Origin: Octopus sinensis
Taxonomy: Eukaryota
Direction: 5' to 3'
Assembly (NCBI RefSeq): GCF_006345805.1
Contig: NC_043002.1
Span: forward strand, 4,650,001-4,714,000
Length of the DNA: 64,000 nucleotides
The notes beneath the pieces are model-generated. The model did not search any database. It saw only the letters and a program-made list of their open reading frames with translations, and was not told the origin of the DNA. This document shows, piece by piece, positions 11,815 to 57,024 of this stretch; positions within the stretch are counted from its first letter, which is position 1; the number at the start of each line of letters is the position of its first letter. A program made the translations under genes and the position numbers.

Positions 11815-14800
11815 GTTTCTTTATTAGCCACACAGGGCTGCACACAGACAGAACAAATTACAAGGTAGAGCTTTTCTTTTGGGGGTAAAAAAAAAGGGGG
11901 TTGGTTTTCGATCAAAAGGGATCGTAAAAGGAAAGAAAGAGGACAAAAAAAGGGGAGGATTTTAAAAAAAGGGGGGGAGAGGAAAAAAAGTTGATCAATA
12001 GGGATCGTGATCACAGAAATGTCAATATGAAGTGTAAAGGGGAGGACAGGTGAGGTTTACCCGTGGAAAGAAAAGCCTACGGAAAAGACCACGGTAACCT
12101 CGGTTAATGAAGTCACATGTTATATTTGTTTCTTTTTTTTTATTGGCAAATAAGCAACTCTCTGTATTAATTTTTACGGTTCATAGAATCATAGTCAAGG
12201 TGGCTTTGTCATTCATACGTGCCATCCTTGCTACATTCACCCATCTTTTTTTAAAACATTCACTAGACAAAACTTGCCTCTCTACTCTCACTTTCCTCCT
12301 CAAGTGATACTTGAAAAAGTTGATGAGAGATTGACCAGAGAGGAAAGTGTTTGTCTCTAATCCTTTCAGGCGCGACCACCAGATACATTCTTTCGCCATA
12401 GCCACAAGTATGATGAAAATAGCTCTTCCTTTCCGTTTGAAGGAAGGAGGCGTGACGATATTAATGATAGACTCGGCTGATAAACCGACACGTTCCACAC
12501 ATGACAGCAGTTGTTCGACATAAGCCCACAGGTGGGAAATTGCTGGACACTGCACGAGTGCGTGCAGAGCGGTATCGTCGCTCTGACCGCATCTCGGGCA
12601 GGTCGGCCCCGTGTTTCTCGAGCCATGCCTATAGAGCTTATCCCGAACGGGTAGCGCTTCTCGGTAGCACCGCCAGGGCAGGGATCTCTGGAAGTTGTCC
12701 ATAGGTCCCGGGCCGAAAGTCGTTTGAAACAGGCAGGTCAGGTATTCCTCGTCGACGCCCAGGTTTGCCCCGAGATCGTGTCGTCGTACCTCCCCTCCAC
12801 TTATCCCCTATAGAATGCTTTGGTTGTGTTGAAGTCACTCAAGGTCGACCGGGACGCAGAGTTGTTGAGAGCAACGCGGACACTCGCGGTGCCATTCGAC
12901 CTTCCTCGGCCTCTTTTTGATCCAGGACTGCAGTTCGGTCATGGAGATGAGTTGCGGGAAAGCGTGCCTCAGAAACGGCGACCAGACCTGTTCACCGTCG
13001 TCTACATAGAGCCGGAGATGTCGCAGTCTCAGCGCGCGTCTGCGCATCATCAACCACGGCGTGTTGACAGCAAATGGATCGCCTGACCATCGGGACGCAT
13101 CCTTTCCACGAGAAGCGGAAGAGAATGCGTTCTAGTTTGGTGATGGTAGGGTCGGGACAAGGTACGACAGTCAGGCGGTAGTAGATGATGGACGCGATGT
13201 ACATGTTCGCCACCTCCGCCCGACCTTTTAGGGATAGTTTCCTCTCGGCCCATTGCTGGGCGCGAGTGACGACCCTACTCGTTATCTCGTTCCAGTTCTT
13301 CTCCATTTGGAGGTCCGGACCGAACCAGACCCCGAGCAACTCGACCCAACCGTCGGTCCAGCGTCCCACTGGACGGCATGGGCTTGTTTCTCCAGGTGCC
13401 GAGGCGCAAGCCCACTGATTTTTCCCGGTTGATTTTCGCTCCTGTCACCGCTTCGTAGTCTTTCAGTGTCTCGCCGACCTGCTCGATGTGCTCGTGACCA
13501 GACACTATGACGGTGACGTCGTTCGCGTATGTAGACACGCTCTTCCCGCATCCCAATTCTCGCGGGATGCCCCTAAGAGTTGTCAGCTTCCGCAATAATG
13601 GCTCGAGAGTCAATACGTATAGAAGCGACGAGAGGGGGCATCCCTGACGGACCGAACGTGCAATGTCGAAAGGTTTCGATAGATGTTCATTTACGCGAAT
13701 TACCGAACGGATGCCTCTTTACAAAGCGGCTATCCAGCCGCGGAAGACGGGACCGAAACCAGCCTCCAAGTATCGATGATCTACCCTATCGAAAGCTTTC
13801 GATTGATCCAAATTGATCAGCGCCCCACCCATGCCAGGTTCCTTAGCTACCCTGTCTATGATGTAGCGCATCAGGTGGAGGTTGTCATGGATGCTCCGGC
13901 CCGCCACGGCGCACGTTTGCGCCTTGTCTACCAGTTTCTCGATGACAAACGTCAACCTCTTGGCTAACACCTTGGCCAACATTTTCAAGTCTGCATTAAG
14001 CAGAGTGATGGGTCTAAAGTTATCTATTACATCCCCTTGTTTGGATCTTTCCTCAGCTGTGTTACGGCTCCTCGGCTCACAAAACCAGGAATGCTCCCAT
14101 TTTGCTGCCAGTTGCAGTACACCGCCGCCAAGAGATCTCCAAACAAGTCTGGCATACAAAGTAAAGCTCGTAGGGTAGACCATCTAAATCCGGCGATTTG
14201 TCCCTCGAGCATTCTGCCATCGCGTCTTGCACTTCCGCAGCTATGATGGCATTTTAGCAGCTCCTGTCTCTCTTGTCGAGAGTCGTGGTAGGCTGTATAG
14301 GTAGGCACTGAAGTCCACCCTACGTTCTTGCCCGCCACTTGTCTCGAACAGTCGAGCAAAGTGCTGTTGAAAGGCCTCACACATTTTACTTTGCTCGAGC
14401 AATTCGCGCCCCTGTTCATCTACCGGAGACCGAATGGTGGTTTTGTTGCCCTGTTGCGCCTCTGCCACCCGGGCCTCTCTCGCGGCTCCAACACCTTCGT
14501 TCCTTAGAGCACGCATCCTAGCTCTGACAACACACTCTTCGTATTTGGCGTTGAAGTGTTGGTCGAGGGCCAACTTCGTCGCCAAAACGTCGGATGCGAT
14601 GCCGCTTCTAATTGCCTCTTCTAGCTTCTTAACTAGCTCACCTTCTACTCTGTTTCTATCTATGGCTAGTGCTTTGTTGTACCTAATCGCTTCTGCTTTT
14701 ACTGCTCTCTTGAGGGAGAACCATCATTTGTTGTTGATGATGGCTCCCGTCAAAGCCCTCTTTACTAGTGTGTTAATCCGGTCTCTGAAAACCTGTCTCG

Positions 14801-15628
14801 ATGGGAAAGACGCGTTTAGTTTCCAGTATCCGGGACCCTGCCTATGTGTCTTACCTAAGTCTAGCATACTTGTCACAAGTTTGTGATCCGTGATGCTGAC
14901 TATTTGGAATTGTGGACATCCTACGCTATCTCTATCTACTGTCATACACAGTATCCTATCTAGATACGATCTCGACGACCCGATTCGGTTGCTCCATGTC
15001 CACGTTGGCGCATTCAGGTGGTCTAGTCGGAACCTGTCAGACAGTTGAAAGCGTCTGAGCAGGTCTCTGAGGCATTTGCATCCCCGTCTATTCCTATCTC
15101 TGCCCACGTGTCCAAAGTAGCATTCCAATCCCCCACTAAGAGTAAAGGACGAGACGTTCCCAAGAATACTTCTAGACGTTGAAAGAAATCCGCCCGACCT
15201 GTTAAAGGCGGTGCGTAGACTGCTAGGAATCGAAAAGTGCACCCATTGCTGCCGTCGAAACCCAGGACGACCAGTCTACCCTCCGGGTCTACGAATATTG
15301 TCTTTACTTTGAGATCCAGAGTCTTGCGAAAAAGTACCGCGGTGCCACTACCGCCCATTCTTGGCAGACAGGGTGAAAAATAAATGTTGAACTGTCCGTC
15401 AAACATGGTCTTTAGGGCCCGCGGATTGTGGAGTCTGGTCTCACTTATGGGTATGATTTCTAACTTGTGTGACTTTATGTCATTTAAAGGTAACCTTGTT
15501 TCCAAGGGGACCCCAAGCCACGCGCATTTACACAACCAATCTTGATCATAATCCTAATGAATTAGAATACAAGTGAAAGGAACAGAGGGTTACTTACTGC
15601 TTGAAAGTTTTTGCTTTCTCACAGAGTG
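11815..15628 (-). mobile_element. L1/Tx1-clade non-LTR retrotransposon, ~3.8 kb (whole ORF2, 3' UTR, likely last codons of ORF1)
   Basis: APE, RT and zf-RVT domains in order; flanked on both sides by (GATA)n at 11747-11811 and ~15650-15727. Confidence 0.93.
12181..15549 (-). pseudogene. Frameshifted ORF2 (APE endonuclease - reverse transcriptase - zf-RVT)
   Basis: MIKIGCVNARGL..ISETRL, VYAP, GDWN, SYLDRI, ITDH, GPGYWKLN, FRPITLLNADLK, LDQSKAFDRVDH, VRQGCPLS, YAND (YADD mutated), CPRC..H..C. Many frameshifts. Confidence 0.92.
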
Positions 15629-16908: not shown

Positions 16909-17146
16909 CCGGAGTAGTAAGCACATAAATGTGAAACAAGGTGGAAAGAAGAGTACTCAAATACCAGGGGTAGAGTAGAGTAATATGCTTTATTTAAAAG
17001 CAGCAGAAATATAACAAAAGCTGTTACTCGGAGTTTCACGTTTCCGTTCGGGCGAAAAGCCCAGAATGTTTATTGTCCGACGAACGAACGAGACGTGAAA
17101 CTCCGAGTAACAGCTTTTGTTATATTTCTGCTGCTTTTAATAAATG
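16909..17146. mobile_element. Hairpin (inverted pLTR-type) Penelope-like footprint inside (TA)n
   Basis: Inverted arms ~16990-17050 and ~17085-17143 plus an ~80 nt unpaired extension; contains a hammerhead motif. Confidence 0.65.
17073..17113 (+). ncRNA. Minimal type I hammerhead ribozyme motif (U4C variant)
   Basis: TTGT-CCGACGA-ACG(aacgaga)CGT-GAAA-CTCCGAG-TA-ACAG: stem I, core, stem II, GAAA, near-palindromic stem III and UH cleavage site. Confidence 0.7.
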
Positions 17147-21901: not shown

Positions 21902-22148
21902 ATCTTATTATAAAGGCAAATTTTATCTGCCTCCCAAGCCGTTTGTTTATTATACACCAAGAAAAGCAACAAGAATGGATTAGTAGTTGTACTAAACTAC
22001 TAATCCATTCTTGTTGCTTTTTCTTGGTTATAATCCCCTCATTATTTTATGGTTAATACCATAAACAATCTGGTGCATCTAAGTTAAGTACCGCATTCAT
22101 GTGAATTCATTGGAATTCACTTGAATCTTAATTGTTTTTTGCTGAAAG

Positions 22149-22183
<35 letters not shown>

Positions 22184-22472
22184 ATATATATATATATATA
22201 TATAATATATATATACTTTCAGCAAAAACAATTAAGATTCAAGTGAATCCAATGAATTCACATGAATGCGGTACTTAACTTAGATGCACCAGATTGTATG
22301 GTATTAACCATAAAATAATGAGGGGTGATTATAACCAAGAAAAAAGCAACAAGAATGGATAGTAGTTTAGTACAAACTACTAATCCATTCTTGTTGCTTT
22401 TTTCTGGTGTATAATAAACAAACGGCTTGGGAGGCAGATAAAATTTGCCTTTTATAATAAGATATATATCAT

Positions 22473-37989: not shown

Positions 37990-38089
37990 NNNNNNNNNNN
38001 NNNNNNNNNNNNNNNNNNNNNNNNNNNNNNNNNNNNNNNNNNNNNNNNNNNNNNNNNNNNNNNNNNNNNNNNNNNNNNNNNNNNNNNNN
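37990..38089. other. Scaffold gap (100 N)
   Basis: Exactly 100 Ns; true distance unknown. Confidence 1.
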
Positions 38090-42599: not shown

Positions 42600-43410
42600 T
42601 GTGAAGACGTGAGCAGAATTGTCCTGCGTAAGAAAAACCAACCACTATGACGTCATAATATAATGGCATCGAAATTTGTAAAAGATATACGGTACAATGG
42701 GAAAAAGTTACGAACTCTATCGGTTCCTTTCGATTTTCTGTGCAGGATTATGACGTCATAGGATGCACTGTTCAGCATTATTTTCGTTGTCAAAATTATT
42801 GGAGTGGTTTCAGAGTATGTTAGACATTTTCATTTTCTATAAGTTTAATTGAATGAGCAATTGGTAAAGATGTCTGAATCTTTTGGTGGAGCTGCCTATA
42901 AAATGCCACCAATTTCGAGCTCAGTATTCTGGTAGACTAAGGCGGCGAGCTGGCAGAGTCGTTAGCATGCCGAGAAAAATGCTTAGCGGCATTTCGTCAA
43001 TCTTTATGATTTGAGTTCAAATTCTGCTGCAGTCGATTGTTCCTTTCATCCTGTTGGGGTCGATAGAATAAGTACCAGTTGAGCACTGGGATCGATGCAA
43101 TCGATTTAGTCCCTTCCTCTAAATTGCTGACCTTATGCCAAAATTTGAAACAAATTTTCTGCTTGGAAAGAAAGATGAAGGATGTTATTGCAGTAGACAG
43201 GATTTTCATCTTCGTTGAAATAAGGAAAAACTGTCTCTGCTGATATTTCAGTTTCTGGTTGAAGCCAGTTCTTTCCTTTTGGTTTGGATGCTAAGGTTTG
43301 GCAAACTGCTATGACAGCCTGAGGTCTCGTATCATTTCATTAAGTTCTTTTGGGGGGAACTGCTTTGAGGTGAAAAAAAAAACAAACTTACTGCGGATTC
43401 GTTTTTACTG
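42600..43410 (+). repeat. Old duplicated segment, copy 1 (paralogous to 49250-50550); carries a family C SINE at 42940-43151
   Basis: Colinear blocks shared with copy 2, e.g. attattttcgttgtcaaaattatt, aagtttaattgaat, ctgaggtctcgtat. Confidence 0.8.
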
Positions 43411-46600: not shown

Positions 46601-46856
46601 TCGTCAGATCAAAACTCCTTCGCCATGTTAGCTTGGAGTCATTTTACTCGGCGTTATTCTGGGGTTAACGGGCAACTGAGATTGCGACACCTGGAAATTT
46701 GGGGAACTTTGGATTGATTCCGAGCCTGACATCTCATTTGTTTCATCAAAGTTTGCTTGTGTGTGCTGTAGAACGTCTACTGTCTGTACGCATTTGATCT
46801 TAGTTTGACGAGTTCCGAGTTTCTTTAGTAGCTTCCCGGAAATACTTTTTGAGACC

Positions 46857-47194
46857 TACGGAGATGTACTCGCATAGCAAGTGACCTGATCTGAGATCGT
46901 GTCCTGAAACGAAAACAATTGCAGCGTGGAAGGTGTTTGTAAGCCATTTAAGAAACACACAAAAGCCGTTCCATTCACTTCAACATTTAAGTTTAATTTG
47001 TCAATATATTTTCGTCGCTAAAATCCGCGACCTGTTCACTGACAAAAGAGATGCAGCACGGACTTTTGTCAGTGAACAGGTCGCGGATTTTAGCGACGAA
47101 AATATATTGACAAATTAAACTTAAATGTTGAAGTGAATGGAACGGCTTTTGTGTTTCTTAAATGGCTTACAAACACCTTCCACGCTGCAATTGT
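46857..47194 (-). mobile_element. Penelope-like hairpin insertion E1 with 12-bp TSD
   Basis: Arms 46915-47048 and 47063-47194, 58-nt extension, TSD ctttttgagacc at 46845-46856 and 47195-47206. Minus-strand ORF start MAYKHLPRCNCFRFRTRSQIRSLAMRVHLR. Confidence 0.8.
47065..47114 (+). ncRNA. Non-canonical minimal hammerhead-like motif (G3-C8 core)
   Basis: TTTGTCA-GTGAACA-G-GTCGC(ggatttta)GCGAC-GAAA-ATAT-AT-TGACAAA; mirrored in the other arm. Position 16.1 is A in this copy. Confidence 0.55.
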
Positions 47195-47270
47195 CTTTTT
47201 GAGACCGATGTATCATTAACCATTGGTGCGACAGAATGATAGACAAACAATCATTCACACATACACGCGT

Positions 47271-47348
<78 letters not shown>

Positions 47349-48193
47349 CTTTGTATAATTGAAGTGTTTCTCTAAAATATGTGTCCTTTACTTTTTATAA
47401 CCTAGCATTTGGACAAACAGACTGGAATAAAATACGTACGACACTGGAATAAATAATGGTGTGGATATGCTCGACTGAAAGTCTCCGACGGTGGTACAAT
47501 TGTTGATTTATTTGATAACACAGAAACGAGTGAAAGGACAAAATATTTTCAATTCATACGATATATCTCTCTTAAAATATTACAGCATAAATTCTTTATT
47601 TTCTTATGCCCCGCAATTTAGAAATGCCCGTTAGCTTCAGATTGGAACCTCAAGCAGGTTTTCTGCGCTGAAAGAGAGTGATTGAGAATTTACAGTTACC
47701 CGTAACGGCATAGACATCTCGCAACCATGTTGTGACTCCAACCAGCAAGCTGTCGATGGTGTTTAAAGACTCAAAGATTATGTTGTAAAAGAGGAGCGGA
47801 TCTCCGCCTGTCTGTCCGTCACAACATCAATTAGAAAGAGGGAAAAAAGGGGAGGAATCAAAATATATTTCACAATGTAGTTTTAGAACAAGAGGAGAAA
47901 GGATGAGAAAGAAACACAGTGAGAGAAATACAGTGAGAGAGGGAGAAAGAGAGAGAGAGAGGGAGAGAGTGTGGGTGTGTGTATGCGTGAAGAAAAAAAA
48001 GATACATACACATAGATACATACATAAATAGGTATTGTTGCTATAGTAACTAACAAGTTTTGATTAAAAACGCGGCAGTTTTAAGTGCGAGTCTGTGAAT
48101 ACAACGAAGTACACTTAAAAAGAACACTTTCATTATATAACAATATATATAGTCATTTTTGGGTTGTTTGTATTTCTTTGTGTGTGTGTGTGT

Positions 48194-48245
<52 letters not shown>

Positions 48246-49394
48246 GTGTGTGTGTTTATGTCTTCCAACACAGAGGCAACGCAACGCATACTAAAAAAGA
48301 CTGTCACTGTAATGACAGATTGTTGATGTCGAGAAAAAAATTCAGGGACAGATAGATTGATAGAGAAAGAGAGTGTGTGTGTGGGGGGTGGGGGTTGAAA
48401 GATAAAATTAAAAATTGCTTCAAGGAAAAACAGGCTGATGTTGTTGAGAGTACAATACAGTGTGTGAGAGAGAGAGAGAGAGAGAGAGAAAGAAAGAGCG
48501 TGTGTTTGTGTATGTGTGAAAGATAGGTAGACTGTTGCCACCATAGTAATTAACAAAGTTTTCATTACATAATAGTCTGCTATTAAAAGAAGGTACTTTT
48601 ATGACTAATAAATGTTTTTACCGGCAGCGTAGCGACGGATTAGACCTAGAGTTCATACAACCGACCCTGGAAATTTGATTGACCGTCTTGACTACGTGTA
48701 GTTACAAATGGTTATTTCTTAATTCCAATTTTTGTCTAATTTTTTATAGTATTTGTAGTCACTTGATATGAACAAATTAAAGCATATTATCACAGGAATG
48801 ATAAATATTTGATGTATCAAATTGTAAGAGAAAAGAAATAAAAATGTCGATTTATTCCCTTAGTTTCAGTTTTGCTAAAACGAGAATTATGTTTGCATCA
48901 ATGATAGCATTGTAAATAAATGGAACAGCCTGCAGCTAGTTTTCAAAATCGTTACGGACCCCTACTCGACATATACGATTTGTTCAATGACTAAATATCT
49001 GATAATGTGAGCACACACACGAACACACACAAATGCATATGTGTCTGTGTGTGTGAGGGGTTTGTATGAATGTGTTTATGTGTGTGTCTGTGCTTGTGCG
49101 CGTGTTTATGTGTGTGCGTGTGTTTGTGTGTGTATGTGTAATTTCAAATGCTTACCTATCACACATTTAAATGTTTCATTGCTATATAGCTTACAGACAA
49201 TGCTGTTTATATCCGGTTGGTGTTGACTGACGCACTGAATGTTGGGAAAACGAAAGCAGATTTTCCCGCGCAAGAGATATTGGCACATTATGACGTCATA
49301 ATGTAATGGTATCGAAATTTCTAAAAGATATATGGTACATACGGCACAATTGGAAAAAGTTACCACCTACTCGTATATTATTCTTTTTTTATTC

Positions 49395-49792
49395 TTTTAT
49401 TCTTTTACTTGTTTCAGTCATTTGACTGCGGCCATGCTGGAGCACCGCCTTTAATCGAGCAATCGACCCCGGGACTTATTCTTTTGTAAGCCCAGTACTT
49501 ATTCTATCGGTCTCTTTTGCCGAACCGCTAAGTAACGGGGACATAAACACACCAGCATCGGTTGTCAAGCAATGCTAGGGGGACAAACACAGACACACAA
49601 GCACACACACGCATATATATACATATATACGACGGGCTTCTTTCAGTTTCCGTCTACCAAATACACTCACAAGGCTTTGGTCGGCCCGAGGCTATAGTAG
49701 AAGACACTTGCCCAACGTGCCACGCAGTGGGACTGAACCCAGAACCATGTGGTTCGTAAGCACGCTACTTACCACACAGCCACTCCTGCGCC
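49395..49792 (-). mobile_element. Full-length family A SINE
   Basis: Reverse complement of the 36282 copy. Confidence 0.88.
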
Positions 49793-49923
49793 TTTTATTA
49801 GTTCCTTTCAATTTTATATGTAGGATTATAAGAGCATAACAGAATACATTGTTCAACATTATTTTCGTTGTCAAAATTATTGAAGTGGTTTCAGGATATG
49901 TTTGAGATTATCATATTCTTTAA

Positions 49924-50195
49924 TCTGTTGTGTCTGGGGAGAGTCATTTTCTTTTTGTGCCTTATAATATAACACACTCACCGGTAAAATTTCCACTTTT
50001 TTGTTCCTTATTTTTATTTTCCTAAAATCTTCGTTGCGTCTTGCAACCTTTTCAATAGTTTTACCGGAAATGTTACCGGTGAGTGTGTTGTATTATAAGG
50101 CACAAAAAGAAAATGACTCTCCCTAGACACAACAGAATATGCTTCAACACACGATCTCACATAAAGAATCTTGCTAACCAAATTCCCCGCAAAAA
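49924..50195 (+). mobile_element. Penelope-like hairpin insertion E2 with 12-bp TSD
   Basis: Arms 49924-49987 and 50073-50136, 59-nt extension, TSD catattctttaa at 49912-49923 and 50196-50207, empty paralogous site near 42831. ORF start MTLPRHNRICFNTRSHIKNLANQIPRK at 50113. Confidence 0.8.
50022..50058 (-). ncRNA. Non-canonical minimal hammerhead-like motif (U3-A8 core)
   Basis: CTA-TTGAAAA-G-GTTGC(aagac)GCAAC-GAAG-ATTT-TAG. Position 15.1 is G in this copy. Confidence 0.45.
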
Positions 50196-50962
50196 CATAT
50201 TCTTTAAGTTTAATTGAATAAGCAATTGGTGAAGATGTCTAGCGGTTTCATTGTGTAATAAAAGACATCTGAATCTTCTGGCGGAGAACCACAACAATCT
50301 TGTGCTAAGTTTTCAGGCTGACAAATTTAGAAAGAAAGATCAGAGACATTACTGCAGCAGACAAGATTTCCATATTCGTTGAAGTAGAAATGAAATCTTT
50401 GTTCTCTTTTTCGATTGGCTGTTACTTCAGTTTCTGGTCGTAAACAGTTCTTTTATTTTGACCTGGATGATTATGTTCGGTAGGCTGCTTTGATAAACTG
50501 AGGTCTCGTATTAAGTTTTTTTTTTCTTTGGTGTTAAAAACTTACTGCTTCTTCTCTTTTACTTGTTTCAGTCATTAGACTGCGGCCATGCTGGAGCACC
50601 GCCTTAAAAGGAAATGAAGATATTCACGTGTCGAGAAAAAAGCTCAATTTTCAAGTGCTCTTTCCTTGATCCGTGTGTGGCATATATCTCTTCATTTTCA
50701 CTGTTACCATCTATATACACACCAAGCTGTGTCTCGGTCTCATCAATAACATTATTGATGAGACCGAATGGGACACATTTACAAATGCACATAAACACAA
50801 GCATACTCACACAATTGTATATAAAAGCTTGTTTTTTTTTTTAAAGTTTGTCTCACTTTATATCCAGTAACTTAGTTGTTCTATAAAGTGTTATATAAAG
50901 TTGTTATAAAAGTGTTGAATAAAATAAGTACGAAGCCGAAATAAGTGTAAATAGGGAAATAT

Positions 50963-55736: not shown

Positions 55737-57024
55737 GGTCATCCCATAAGTTCCGTCCGATTTTACCTTTATTAAAATTGAATGAAATTTAATAGTATTT
55801 TTGAATGTCTAATGCAATTAAAATTATTTTTATGCATTTGCGTACATTTAAACTAATTAGATATTATTTTACAGAATAATAGAATTAAAATTTCTTTGAT
55901 TAAAACCCCTTCTAACATGGAAGTAGCCAAAGAGCATTTGAGGCACATAATGCTTTATGAGTACGAAAAAGGAAACTCTGCAGCCGAAGCGACTCGAAAC
56001 ATACACTCAGTTTATGGCAAAGAATGCTTGAATGAAAGAACTTGCAGAAGCTGGTTTGAAAAATTCAGAAGTGGAGATTTCAGCCTTGAAGATGAAGATC
56101 GAACAGGACATCCAGTTGAGTTTGATGATAAGGTCCTTGAGGCATTACTTGAAGAAAATCCTGCATTATCTGTTGAAGAATTGGCAATAAAGCTTACTTC
56201 AAACCATATAACTGTTCATTGTCATCTTCAACAACTTGGAAAGATTCCTAAACTTGGAAAATGGTTGCCTCATGAATTGTCCGAAAGCAACCGCAAATCC
56301 CGAGTTAACATCTGCTCTTCTTTCCATCCTTGCAAACTCATTTCACTCTTTTTGGATAGACTTGTAACTGGTGACGAAAAATGGATCTTCTATTGAAATG
56401 TTAAACGTCGTAAACGGGTGCTTGGTAAAAGGGAAAAAGCTCAACCACAACCGAGAAGGGAACTTCATGAGAAAAAGGATTTTCTCTCTATCTGGTAAGA
56501 TTGCAAAGGACTAATTCACTTTTATTGTTACCACCTAATGCAACTATCAATGCTCAAGTCTACTGTCAGCAATTAGAGGGTTTGAACCAAGCTTTGAAGA
56601 AAAAACGACCCGCTTTAGTGAATCAAAAAGGAGTGATGTTTCATTTGGACAATGCGCAACCCCGAACTGCAAAGATCACATCACAGAAGATCAAAGAGCT
56701 TGGTTGGGAAAAAAATTTCTTCATCCACCTTATTCTTCCGAACTTGCTCCTCCAGACTAACATTTGTTTCGTAGTTTACAGAATCATTTGGGGGATATAA
56801 CTTTCGCAAGCCAGGAAGAGGTTAAAACTGACATTTCCGAGTTCTTCGCTTTGAAATCAAAAGAGTTTTACATTGATGGGATTTAAAAGCTTGTAAAATA
56901 GATGGAAGTAAGTCATGGATAATCAGGGAAAGTACATTGATGATTAAATTTCAATTAGATAAAACATTTGATCACTTGTTTTCTTTATTGAAAACTGGGA
57001 CAAAACCTATGAGATGTCCTGATA
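55734..57024 (+). mobile_element. Full-length (~1.3 kb) decayed mariner element
   Basis: Imperfect TIRs (ggtcatcccataagttccgtcc versus revcomp ggacatctcataggttttgtcc) with TA ends enclosing a transposase. Confidence 0.92.
55917..56947 (+). pseudogene. Mariner DD34D transposase pseudogene
   Basis: HTH N-terminus, WLPHEL, TGDEKW, HLDNA, PPYSSELAPPD*HL; stops and frameshifts. Confidence 0.92.

What the first reader, a model, noticed from the sequence alone, without database searches (positions are those of the whole stretch)
46857..50195. Two divergent hairpin retro-insertions with identical architecture and homologous end points
Seen: E1 (46857-47194) and E2 (49924-50195) each have a long inverted repeat, a 58-59 nt unpaired extension and an exact 12-bp TSD; E2 also has an empty paralogous site at ~42831. 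Their DNA is mostly dissimilar, yet both encode an ORF start, MAYKHLPRCNCFRFRTRSQIRSLAMRVHLR and MTLPRHNRICFNTRSHIKNLANQIPRK (LPR.N...F.TRS.I..LA). In both, the inverted arm ends at the same codon boundary. Established: Penelope-like elements have pLTRs overlapping the ORF start, inverted 5' copies and hammerheads. Inference: a PLE lineage whose integration uses two precisely defined sites ~58 nt apart and a fixed 12-nt staggered cut, leaving stereotyped mini-elements.
Basis: partly seen in the sequence, partly recalled or inferred. Interest (0 to 1): 0.8.

Follow-up and report, generated by a model that had tools for sequence, protein, structure and literature searches.

The report
Twin-primed Penelope retroelement end hairpins
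These two short hairpins are stubby insertions left by two sister families of Penelope-like jumping genes in what is likely an octopus genome; the layout is already known, but the copies suggest that both cut ends of the target DNA likely start copying, sometimes from two different RNA molecules, and the parent enzyme belongs to a possibly undescribed branch.

Summary
Observation confirmed: E1 and E2 each have inverted arms, a 58/59-nt tail and an exact 12-nt target duplication; E2's empty paralogous site is real. Both are ends (pLTR plus ORF start) of high-copy Penelope-like element (PLE) families. Longer copies carry the peptides on into a ~1,080-aa ORF whose model matches telomerase RT and the I-TevI GIY-YIG domain. 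Inverted pLTR + tail + duplication is published PLE anatomy, and this scan noted it before in shark-type genomes. What is added: 139 of 140 two-ended insertions have one short and one long end; duplications peak at 12 nt; arms stop about 115 nt upstream of the ATG; 7 of 45 hairpins join arms of two different subfamily haplotypes, which points to two RNA templates (assembly error not excluded). The pLTRs hold minimal hammerhead motifs whose core 3:8 pair is G-C, U-A or C-G in three sister families. The RT has a conserved ~70-residue insertion in the fingers, absent from the C-terminal-endonuclease PLE clades shown in Craig et al. 2021; clade placement was not testable. The minis look like dead-end by-products, not a self-copying family.

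The parts
46845..46856 (.). E1 target-site duplication, left copy (12 nt)
46857..46914 (-). E1 tail, nt 34-91 of the family F1 ORF (between the short and long end points)
46857..46947 (-). first 30 codons of the F1 RT-endonuclease ORF (MAYKHLPRC...)
   Evidence: (181 of 190 nt identical to full-length copy L233)
46915..47048 (-). E1 tail-bearing pLTR arm (about -100 to +33 relative to the ATG)
46997..47047 (-). minimal type-I hammerhead motif, G3:C8 core, in the tail-bearing arm; this copy has a substitution in stem III
47049..47194 (+). E1 tail-less pLTR arm (about -114 to +33), with a second hammerhead motif at 47064-47114
47195..47206 (.). E1 target-site duplication, right copy
49912..49923 (.). 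E2 target-site duplication, left copy (12 nt)
49924..50063 (-). E2 tail-less pLTR arm of family F2 (+24 to about -115)
50021..50059 (-). minimal hammerhead motif, U3:A8 core; this copy reads GAAG for GAAA
50064..50136 (+). E2 tail-bearing arm (about -50 to +24)
50113..50195 (+). first 27 codons of the F2 ORF (MTLPRHNRIC...); nt 25-83 (50137-50195) are the tail
   Evidence: (100 of 109 nt identical to run-on copy L253)
50196..50207 (.). E2 target-site duplication, right copy
42718..42941 (+). paralogous empty site for E2; single copy of the 12-mer at 42831-42842

Best explanation
E1 and E2 are head-to-head, 5'-truncated end fragments of two sister Penelope-like retrotransposon families, likely made when the element's enzyme cuts both target strands about 12 nt apart and each cut end primes its own reverse transcription. 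Shown: family identity, the parent RT plus C-terminal GIY-YIG ORF, the two end points (nt ~33 and ~91 in F1, ~24 and ~83 in F2), one short and one long end per insertion, the 12-nt mode, AT-rich and (TA)n targets, and junctions with 0-2 nt overlap. Inferred: (1) a staggered double-strand cut gives two 3' ends; (2) one primes at the upstream start site and the other at the downstream site 58 nt further into the ORF, which makes the tail; (3) both cDNAs copy back through the pLTR and are joined head to head by microhomology; (4) the two cDNAs often come from the same source but in a minority from two different RNAs, as a two-subunit particle would allow; (5) most minis stop near -115 because the template is the ordinary mRNA that begins there, so they are dead-end by-products of autonomous copies.
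For: Full-length F1 copy L233 starts with the E1 peptide and holds RT (YVDD) and endonuclease, with one frameshift; L232 has a 1,042-residue open frame. The F2 peptide runs on in L253, L252, L249 and L257; F2-type pLTRs lie beside RT-endonuclease sequence 48-51% identical to F1 in L243 and L171. The AF2 model (pLDDT 91.5) has telomerase RTs as its top 14 matches (Z 12.3-13.9) and the I-TevI catalytic domain at residues 930-1029 (Z 10.8, rmsd 2.1, 90 aligned). One short plus one long end: F1 89 of 90, F2 34 of 34, F3 16 of 16; the F3 loci were chosen by the protein, not the tail. Duplication exactly 12 nt in 22 of 68 and 6 of 27 copies outside microsatellites, 11 or more in 35 of 68 and 12 of 27; mismatched-flank controls 3 of 800 and 2 of 400. 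Junction signatures 75 distinct of 85, overlap 0-2 nt in 39 of 85. Arm haplotypes AA 31, BB 7, mixed 7 of 45; mixed L333 and L385 sit in exact 12-nt duplications; F3 arms differ from 0 of 1,407 sites (L162) to 27 of 298 (L149). 5' ends: 27 of 62 and 18 of 33 F1 arms at -120 to -111; in 60 further loci only 4 of 103 arms pass -120. In vitro, the anole PLE cuts and extends both strands and starts at two sites that bound the tail (PMC11167929).
Against: Most F1 and F2 loci were fetched with queries that include the tail, so at least one long end was forced there. Arms are correlated (7 mixed against 16 expected if independent, Fisher p 6.5e-4), so two independent templates are not the rule. Mixed arms could come from polishing errors in the assembly, later gene conversion, or two unlike pLTRs on one transcript; the window holds one fold-back (21914-22450) that looks like an assembly artefact. 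About half of the scorable copies show no repeat of 11 nt or more, and 87 of 182 copies lie in microsatellite or low-complexity targets and could not be scored. The anole study saw no difference in start site between the two strands. A. vaga head-to-head structures were explained by self-priming on an antisense template (PMC3846280). No transcript start was measured.
Confidence: 0.7

Rival explanations
1. Same elements, one priming event: a single cDNA folds back on itself or switches template, or self-primes on an antisense RNA, and the endonuclease resolves the intermediate so that one end keeps the tail.
For: Proposed in print (self-priming, PMC3846280; endonuclease-mediated resolution of the tail, PMC8557442). 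38 of 45 hairpins have matching arm haplotypes; E1's arms share two rare variants and differ at none of the compared sites.
Against: A fold-back copy must match its template, but 7 of 45 F1 hairpins and about 4 of 15 F3 loci have arms of different subfamilies. Either arm can be the longer one: in F3 the tail arm is longer in 5 of 16 and the tail-less arm in 11 of 16.
Confidence: 0.2
2. The minis are a self-copying non-autonomous family (retrozyme- or SINE-like) that the PLE enzyme moves as a fixed hairpin unit.
For: High copy number (1,494 and 1,769 first-look candidates); hammerhead motif present; a 141-nt tandem array of an F1 fragment exists (L111).
Against: 75 of 85 centres are distinct and no signature occurs more than 3 times. 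Arm lengths run continuously up to full length. 5' ends do not pile up at the predicted hammerhead cut (-56 in F1). The anole enzyme needs RNA well past the start sites (172 nt of ORF), which minis lack. The tandem array unit has lost the hammerhead.
Confidence: 0.07
3. MITEs or fold-back DNA transposons, microRNA precursors, or assembly fold-back artefacts.
For: Long inverted repeats with a duplication; weak Rfam microRNA matches, all far below gathering score.
Against: The inverted repeat is not terminal on the tail side; the arms are PLE ORF starts; contigs of other public runs break off at the same ends (46857 in 98, 91 and 81 contigs; 49924 in 105, 111 and 90); an empty site exists.
Confidence: 0.01

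Closest known systems
Insertion units of endonuclease-bearing Penelope-like elements: pLTR, inverted pLTR and tail (Adineta vaga Pen2a/Pen2/Pen3a, PMC3846280; Fig. 2 legend of PMC8557442)
   Same: pLTR includes the first codons of the ORF; inverted 5'-truncated copy; tail on one end only; short duplication; (TA)n preference in some clades
   Different: Tail 58-59 nt against 30-40 in print (31 in Pen2a); duplication mode 12 nt against 8-10 in the A. vaga examples; here tallied over 140 two-ended insertions
Poseidon element PAc of Anolis (PMC11167929)
   Same: Two RT start sites inside the ORF bound the tail; both target strands cut and extended; AT-rich targets; hammerhead in the pLTR; long N-terminal helices
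   Different: Start sites at about nt 24-33 and 83-91 rather than around 111-118; hammerhead lies wholly upstream of the ATG; the passages read give no one-short-one-long rule and no two-template evidence
Nematis clade PLEs (alignments in supplementary Figs S1, S2 of PMC8557442)
   Same: Single ORF, C-terminal GIY-YIG with CCHH, short CX3CxxC linker (6-10 residues to the next Cys; 23-28 in the Neptune-like set)
   Different: The Nematis rows shown have no insertion in the fingers; this lineage has about 70 extra residues, DKSG for DKG, YVDD, and ORFs of about 1,040-1,090 aa
Naiad/Chlamys PLEs and telomerase RT (insertion in fingers domain)
   Same: Extra sequence between RT motifs 3(A) and 4(B); best structural matches are telomerase RTs
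   Different: Endonuclease is C-terminal here, hammerhead present; insertion about 70 aa against about 20 (Naiad) and 20-40 (Chlamys)
Minimal PLE hammerheads (PMC4209133)
   Same: [quoted passage not shown]
   Different: F1 has G3-C8, which the two parts read do not list as a natural PLE variant (made as a partly active double mutant in PMC11167929); three sister families show all three pairs
LINE-1 twin priming (recalled, no call)
   Same: Both target ends prime; inverted 5' part joined by microhomology
   Different: Here both primings start at fixed sites and copy the same sequence, so the arms overlap fully

Membership tests
Penelope-like elements (endonuclease-bearing) | Telomerase-like reverse transcriptase | tested here: met
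   Model's top matches are TERTs; profile match to a Neptune-like PLE set, probability 100, E 3.9e-52; Atlas neighbours carry RVT_1, HTH_animal and GIY-YIG. Pfam RVT_1 itself did not hit P0001.
Penelope-like elements (endonuclease-bearing) | GIY-YIG endonuclease in the same ORF, with CCHH motif | tested here: met
   I-TevI match at residues 930-1029; conserved Y935, C939, C944, Y951, G953, R962, H982, H987, E1013, N1025
Penelope-like elements (endonuclease-bearing) | pLTRs overlapping the ORF start, direct or inverted, with optional tail | tested here: met
   L233 has 5' and 3' pLTRs; F3 pLTR matches are 222 nt without and 278 nt with tail
Penelope-like elements (endonuclease-bearing) | Hammerhead motif in the pLTR | tested here: met
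   Motif in F1, F2, F3; 6 of 12 pairs change on both sides, 93% paired against 26-51% in slid controls (9 hand-picked copies of 3 families, structure set by me). Rfam found no hammerhead. Cleavage not tested.
Penelope-like elements (endonuclease-bearing) | Frequent 5' truncation and short target duplication | tested here: met
Nematis clade | Short CX2-5CxxC linker before a C-terminal endonuclease | tested here: met
Nematis clade | No insertion in the fingers of the RT | tested here: not met
   Motif A to B' spacing 129-137 in 82 of 82 scorable proteins (of 121) against 63-66 in 50 of 50 scorable (of 120) Neptune-like proteins; Nematis rows in Fig. S1 are short
Nematis clade | Grouping with Nematis in an RT tree | not testable with these tools
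Neptune clade | Long linker after CxxC and grouping with Neptune-like RTs | tested here: not met
   Linker 6-10 against 23-28 residues; separated by a very long branch in a quick tree; the Neptune label of the comparison set is my reading of its linker
Naiad/Chlamys | N-terminal endonuclease, no canonical hammerhead | tested here: not met
   Endonuclease is C-terminal; F3 has a canonical C3-G8 core
Non-LTR retrozymes | Tandem hammerhead-bearing monomers that spread as a unit | tested here: not met
   Dispersed head-to-head copies with unique junctions; the one tandem array seen lacks the hammerhead

The most novel reading that the evidence does not exclude
E1 and E2 mark an undescribed, widespread invertebrate PLE clade: C-terminal GIY-YIG, a conserved ~70-residue insertion in the fingers, missed by the Pfam RT and GIY-YIG models. 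Its insertions record the PLE mechanism directly: an asymmetric two-subunit particle cuts with a 12-nt stagger and primes both ends, always one from each start site, at times from two different RNA molecules.
Probability: 0.35. Interest if true: 0.72.

Novelty: new variant of a known kind. Interest (0 to 1): 0.48.

Why it matters
How PLEs make their tandem and inverted structures is called unresolved in the papers read. A strict one-short-one-long rule, a 12-nt stagger and hairpins built from two subfamily haplotypes give specific predictions that the existing in vitro PLE system can test with two marked templates. A C-terminal-endonuclease lineage with a large fingers insertion would bear on whether that telomerase-like feature was gained or lost several times, and it explains why such elements escape domain-based annotation. 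The hairpins themselves are ordinary transposon debris.

Tried and rejected
Rfam scan: only sub-threshold microRNA matches, no hammerhead. Pfam GIY-YIG search of the genome found other two-frame, Neptune-like PLE families with unrelated pLTRs; it led to the partner only through loci L078 and L098. One search's peptide query was one base out of frame, so its open-frame column says nothing; it was used only as a list of copy positions. Pfam and PDB sequence searches did not recognise P0001. End counts were not de-duplicated for overlapping loci, and BLAST ends overshoot by 1-3 nt in AT-rich flanks; searches are de-duplicated by flank. One search stopped before the F3 summary line; the 16 of 16 is read from its rows. 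Run search: no RNA holder listed. Laying contigs showed no joint across E1 or E2 among the rows shown. Homodimer prediction for residues 30-330: no verdict. The tree is the quick version and lacks named PLE clades. The search of protein representatives was not available, so the size of the lineage is unmeasured. Whether the tail-less arm tends to be longer: 11 of 16 in F3, not significant (p 0.21). Folding around the start sites gave no shared structure. Literature searches for a described clade of this kind and motif searches in the supplement of PMC8557442 (file cut when stored) found none; Repbase, Dfam and Arkhipova 2006 could not be consulted, and the preprint's supplements are closed.

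Full report
Observation. E1 (46857-47194) and E2 (49924-50195) are as described. Each is flanked by an exact 12-nt direct repeat, has inverted arms and a 58- or 59-nt unpaired tail, and encodes the quoted peptide. Folding z-scores are -31.9 and -20.1. The site at 42831-42842 holds one copy of E2's 12-mer (10 of 12 identical) and aligns to both of E2's flanks. E2's stem is shorter than E1's (74 nt, 71-nt loop) because its arms are truncated unequally.

Both are large families. Searches of the own genome gave 1,494 and 1,769 first-look candidates, 40 scored each; these are not copy numbers. Contigs of other public runs break off at the same end points. The host is likely an octopus: a protein named from Octopus vulgaris is nearly identical to the sister family F3.

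The parent elements. Longer F1 copies extend upstream through a microsatellite-rich 3' UTR into endonuclease sequence. L233 is a full-length F1 copy: its ORF begins with the E1 peptide, runs 608 residues, shifts frame once, and ends after RT and endonuclease; a second pLTR follows and stops at the short end point. E1 is 181 of 190 nt identical to it. L232 has a 1,042-residue open frame (P0001). The E2 peptide runs on in L253, L252, L249 and L257 (57 of 144 residues identical to F1), and F2-type pLTRs lie beside RT-endonuclease sequence in L243 and L171; I saw no intact F2 ORF. A third sister family, F3, has the same N-terminus and open frames above 1,000 residues. Pfam and PDB sequence searches missed P0001. 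Its model (104-sequence alignment, pLDDT 91.5) matches telomerase RTs best (Foldseek ranks 1-4; VIA ranks 1-14, Z 12.3-13.9) and the I-TevI catalytic domain at residues 930-1029 (Z 10.8, rmsd 2.1). These are Penelope-like elements.

End points. Arm ends are bimodal: F1 169 of 178 at nt 30-37 or 88-94 of the ORF; F2 113 of 132 at 20-32 or 81-91; F3 71 of 85 at 23-26 or 76-85 (not de-duplicated). In 60 further F1 loci none of 104 ends fell between 42 and 85. Among insertions with both ends visible, one end is short and one long in 89 of 90 F1, 34 of 34 F2 and 16 of 16 F3. The F1 and F2 samples were mostly chosen with the tail in the query, which forces one long end; F3 was not. The tail can sit on the longer or the shorter arm.

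Duplications. Of 123 tail-bearing F1 and F2 copies, 55 lay in microsatellite or low-complexity targets and were set aside; of the other 68 (E1 and E2 included), 22 had an exact 12-nt repeat and 35 had 11 or more, against 3 of 800 mismatched-flank controls. In the later 59 copies, 32 were set aside; of 27, 6 had 12 and 12 had 11 or more (one a 20-nt triplet run), against 2 of 400 controls. So 12 is a sharp mode, not a proven constant; about half show shorter repeats, which later mutation would also give.

How the minis arise. Arms pile up near -115: 27 of 62 tail arms and 18 of 33 tail-less F1 arms at -120 to -111, 12 of 30 F2 tail arms at -121 to -111; in the later set 34 of 103 arms at -122 to -108 and only 4 beyond -120. 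This lies about 25 nt inside the nearest microsatellite and is not the predicted hammerhead cut (-56). I infer an mRNA start; it was not measured. Hairpin centres are mostly unique (75 signatures in 85; overlap 0-2 nt in 39), so each hairpin was likely formed anew.

One template or two. F1 has two haplotypes in hammerhead loop II that differ by an indel and several substitutions. Of 46 hairpins with both loops readable, one was unclassifiable; of 45, 31 were AA, 7 BB and 7 mixed (16 expected if independent, none for one template; association p 6.5e-4). Two mixed ones, L333 and L385, sit in exact 12-nt duplications. In 15 F3 loci, arm differences range from 0 of 1,407 sites to 27 of 298, and in four loci most differences fall on sites polymorphic among other copies. 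This fits two priming events that sometimes use two RNAs. Polishing errors, gene conversion and unlike pLTRs on one transcript are not excluded.

Hammerhead. Each family has a minimal type-I motif upstream of the ATG with one extra base before stem II. The core 3:8 pair is G-C in 99 of 109 F1, U-A in 26 of 27 F2 and C-G in 52 of 53 F3 matches. On nine chosen copies, 6 of 12 pairs change on both sides; these are three independent families, not nine. F2's stem I is only 3 bp, and the copies in E1 and E2 carry substitutions near the core. Activity is untested.

What is in print. Inverted pLTR, 31-nt tail, 8-10-nt duplications and ORF codons in the pLTR: PMC3846280 (passages). Tail of 30-40 nt at either end, clade definitions, fingers insertion only in N-terminal-endonuclease clades among endonuclease-bearing PLEs: PMC8557442 (passages, section 12, supplement parts 1 and 54 and term searches). 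Both strands cut and extended, two start sites bounding the tail, predicted dimer: PMC11167929 (parts 1-2 of 4 and passages). Minimal hammerheads and the U3-A8 variant: PMC4209133 (parts 1-2 of 4). Passages only: bioRxiv 10.64898/2026.07.22.740005 (eight PLE clades listed), PMC13282606 (Penelope expansions in Octopus vulgaris), PMC8969392. LINE-1 twin priming is recalled; a search joining it to PLEs listed three papers on other subjects (listing only). Two earlier notes of this scan report the same fold-back pattern in shark-type genomes; I saw them after forming my reading and did not test them.

The lineage. P0001 has 201 relatives at E 0.001 or better, mostly unnamed, one from a sea cucumber. 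The distance from RT motif A to motif B' is 129-137 residues in 82 of 82 scorable proteins (of 121) against 63-66 in 50 of 50 (of 120) Neptune-like ones. The insertion has near-invariant residues (L525, R548, P555, R568, W572) and is confidently modelled. The endonuclease linker is short, like the Nematis rows of Fig. S2, but the Nematis rows of Fig. S1 lack the insertion. Four searches found no description of such a clade; repeat databases could not be checked and a tree with named clades could not be built.

Verdict. Real, correctly read as PLE ends, and of a known anatomy. The added value lies in the copy statistics, which point to twin priming with occasional use of two RNAs, and in a parent lineage that may be an unnamed clade. 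New variant of a known kind; interest 0.48.

Noticed in passing
L111 (G000:C23:4311000-4319000), from 2605 to the end of the stretch: Tandem array of at least 38 copies of a 141-nt unit made of the F1 ORF start and tail plus about 50 nt upstream, without the hammerhead: a satellite born from a PLE end.
   Followed up: partly
L095, L096, L092, L093, L103: Other, Neptune-like PLE families in the same genome with an upstream frame overlapping a ~780-aa RT-endonuclease frame; several copies have open frames of 775-781 residues.
   Followed up: partly
L161, L162, L239: Family F3 carries a long asparagine-rich insert upstream of the RT without breaking the frame, recalling the N-rich inserts described in A. 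vaga Penelope elements.
   Followed up: no
window 21914-22450: Near-perfect inverted duplication around a (TA)n centre whose arms differ almost only by 1-2-nt indels; looks like a long-read fold-back artefact. Each arm holds a small internal hairpin.
   Followed up: partly
window 16989-17144: Another short hairpin element (83% self-complementary) beside (TA)n, not matched to F1-F3.
   Followed up: no
window 42640-43350 and 49280-50530: The sequence E2 inserted into is itself repeated in the window about 7 kb upstream, in several 70-89% identical pieces.
   Followed up: partly
window 12184-15553, minus strand: Broken reading frames of a LINE-type element with endonuclease- and RT-like pieces (family not tested).
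   Followed up: no
window 55857-56393: Reading frame resembling a mariner transposase N-terminus (resemblance recalled, not tested).
   Followed up: no
window 37990-38089: 100-base assembly gap.
   Followed up: no
P0156, P0159, P0175, P0177, P0186, P0217: Neptune-like PLE proteins filed under bacterial symbiont names, probably host DNA in metagenome bins.
   Followed up: no
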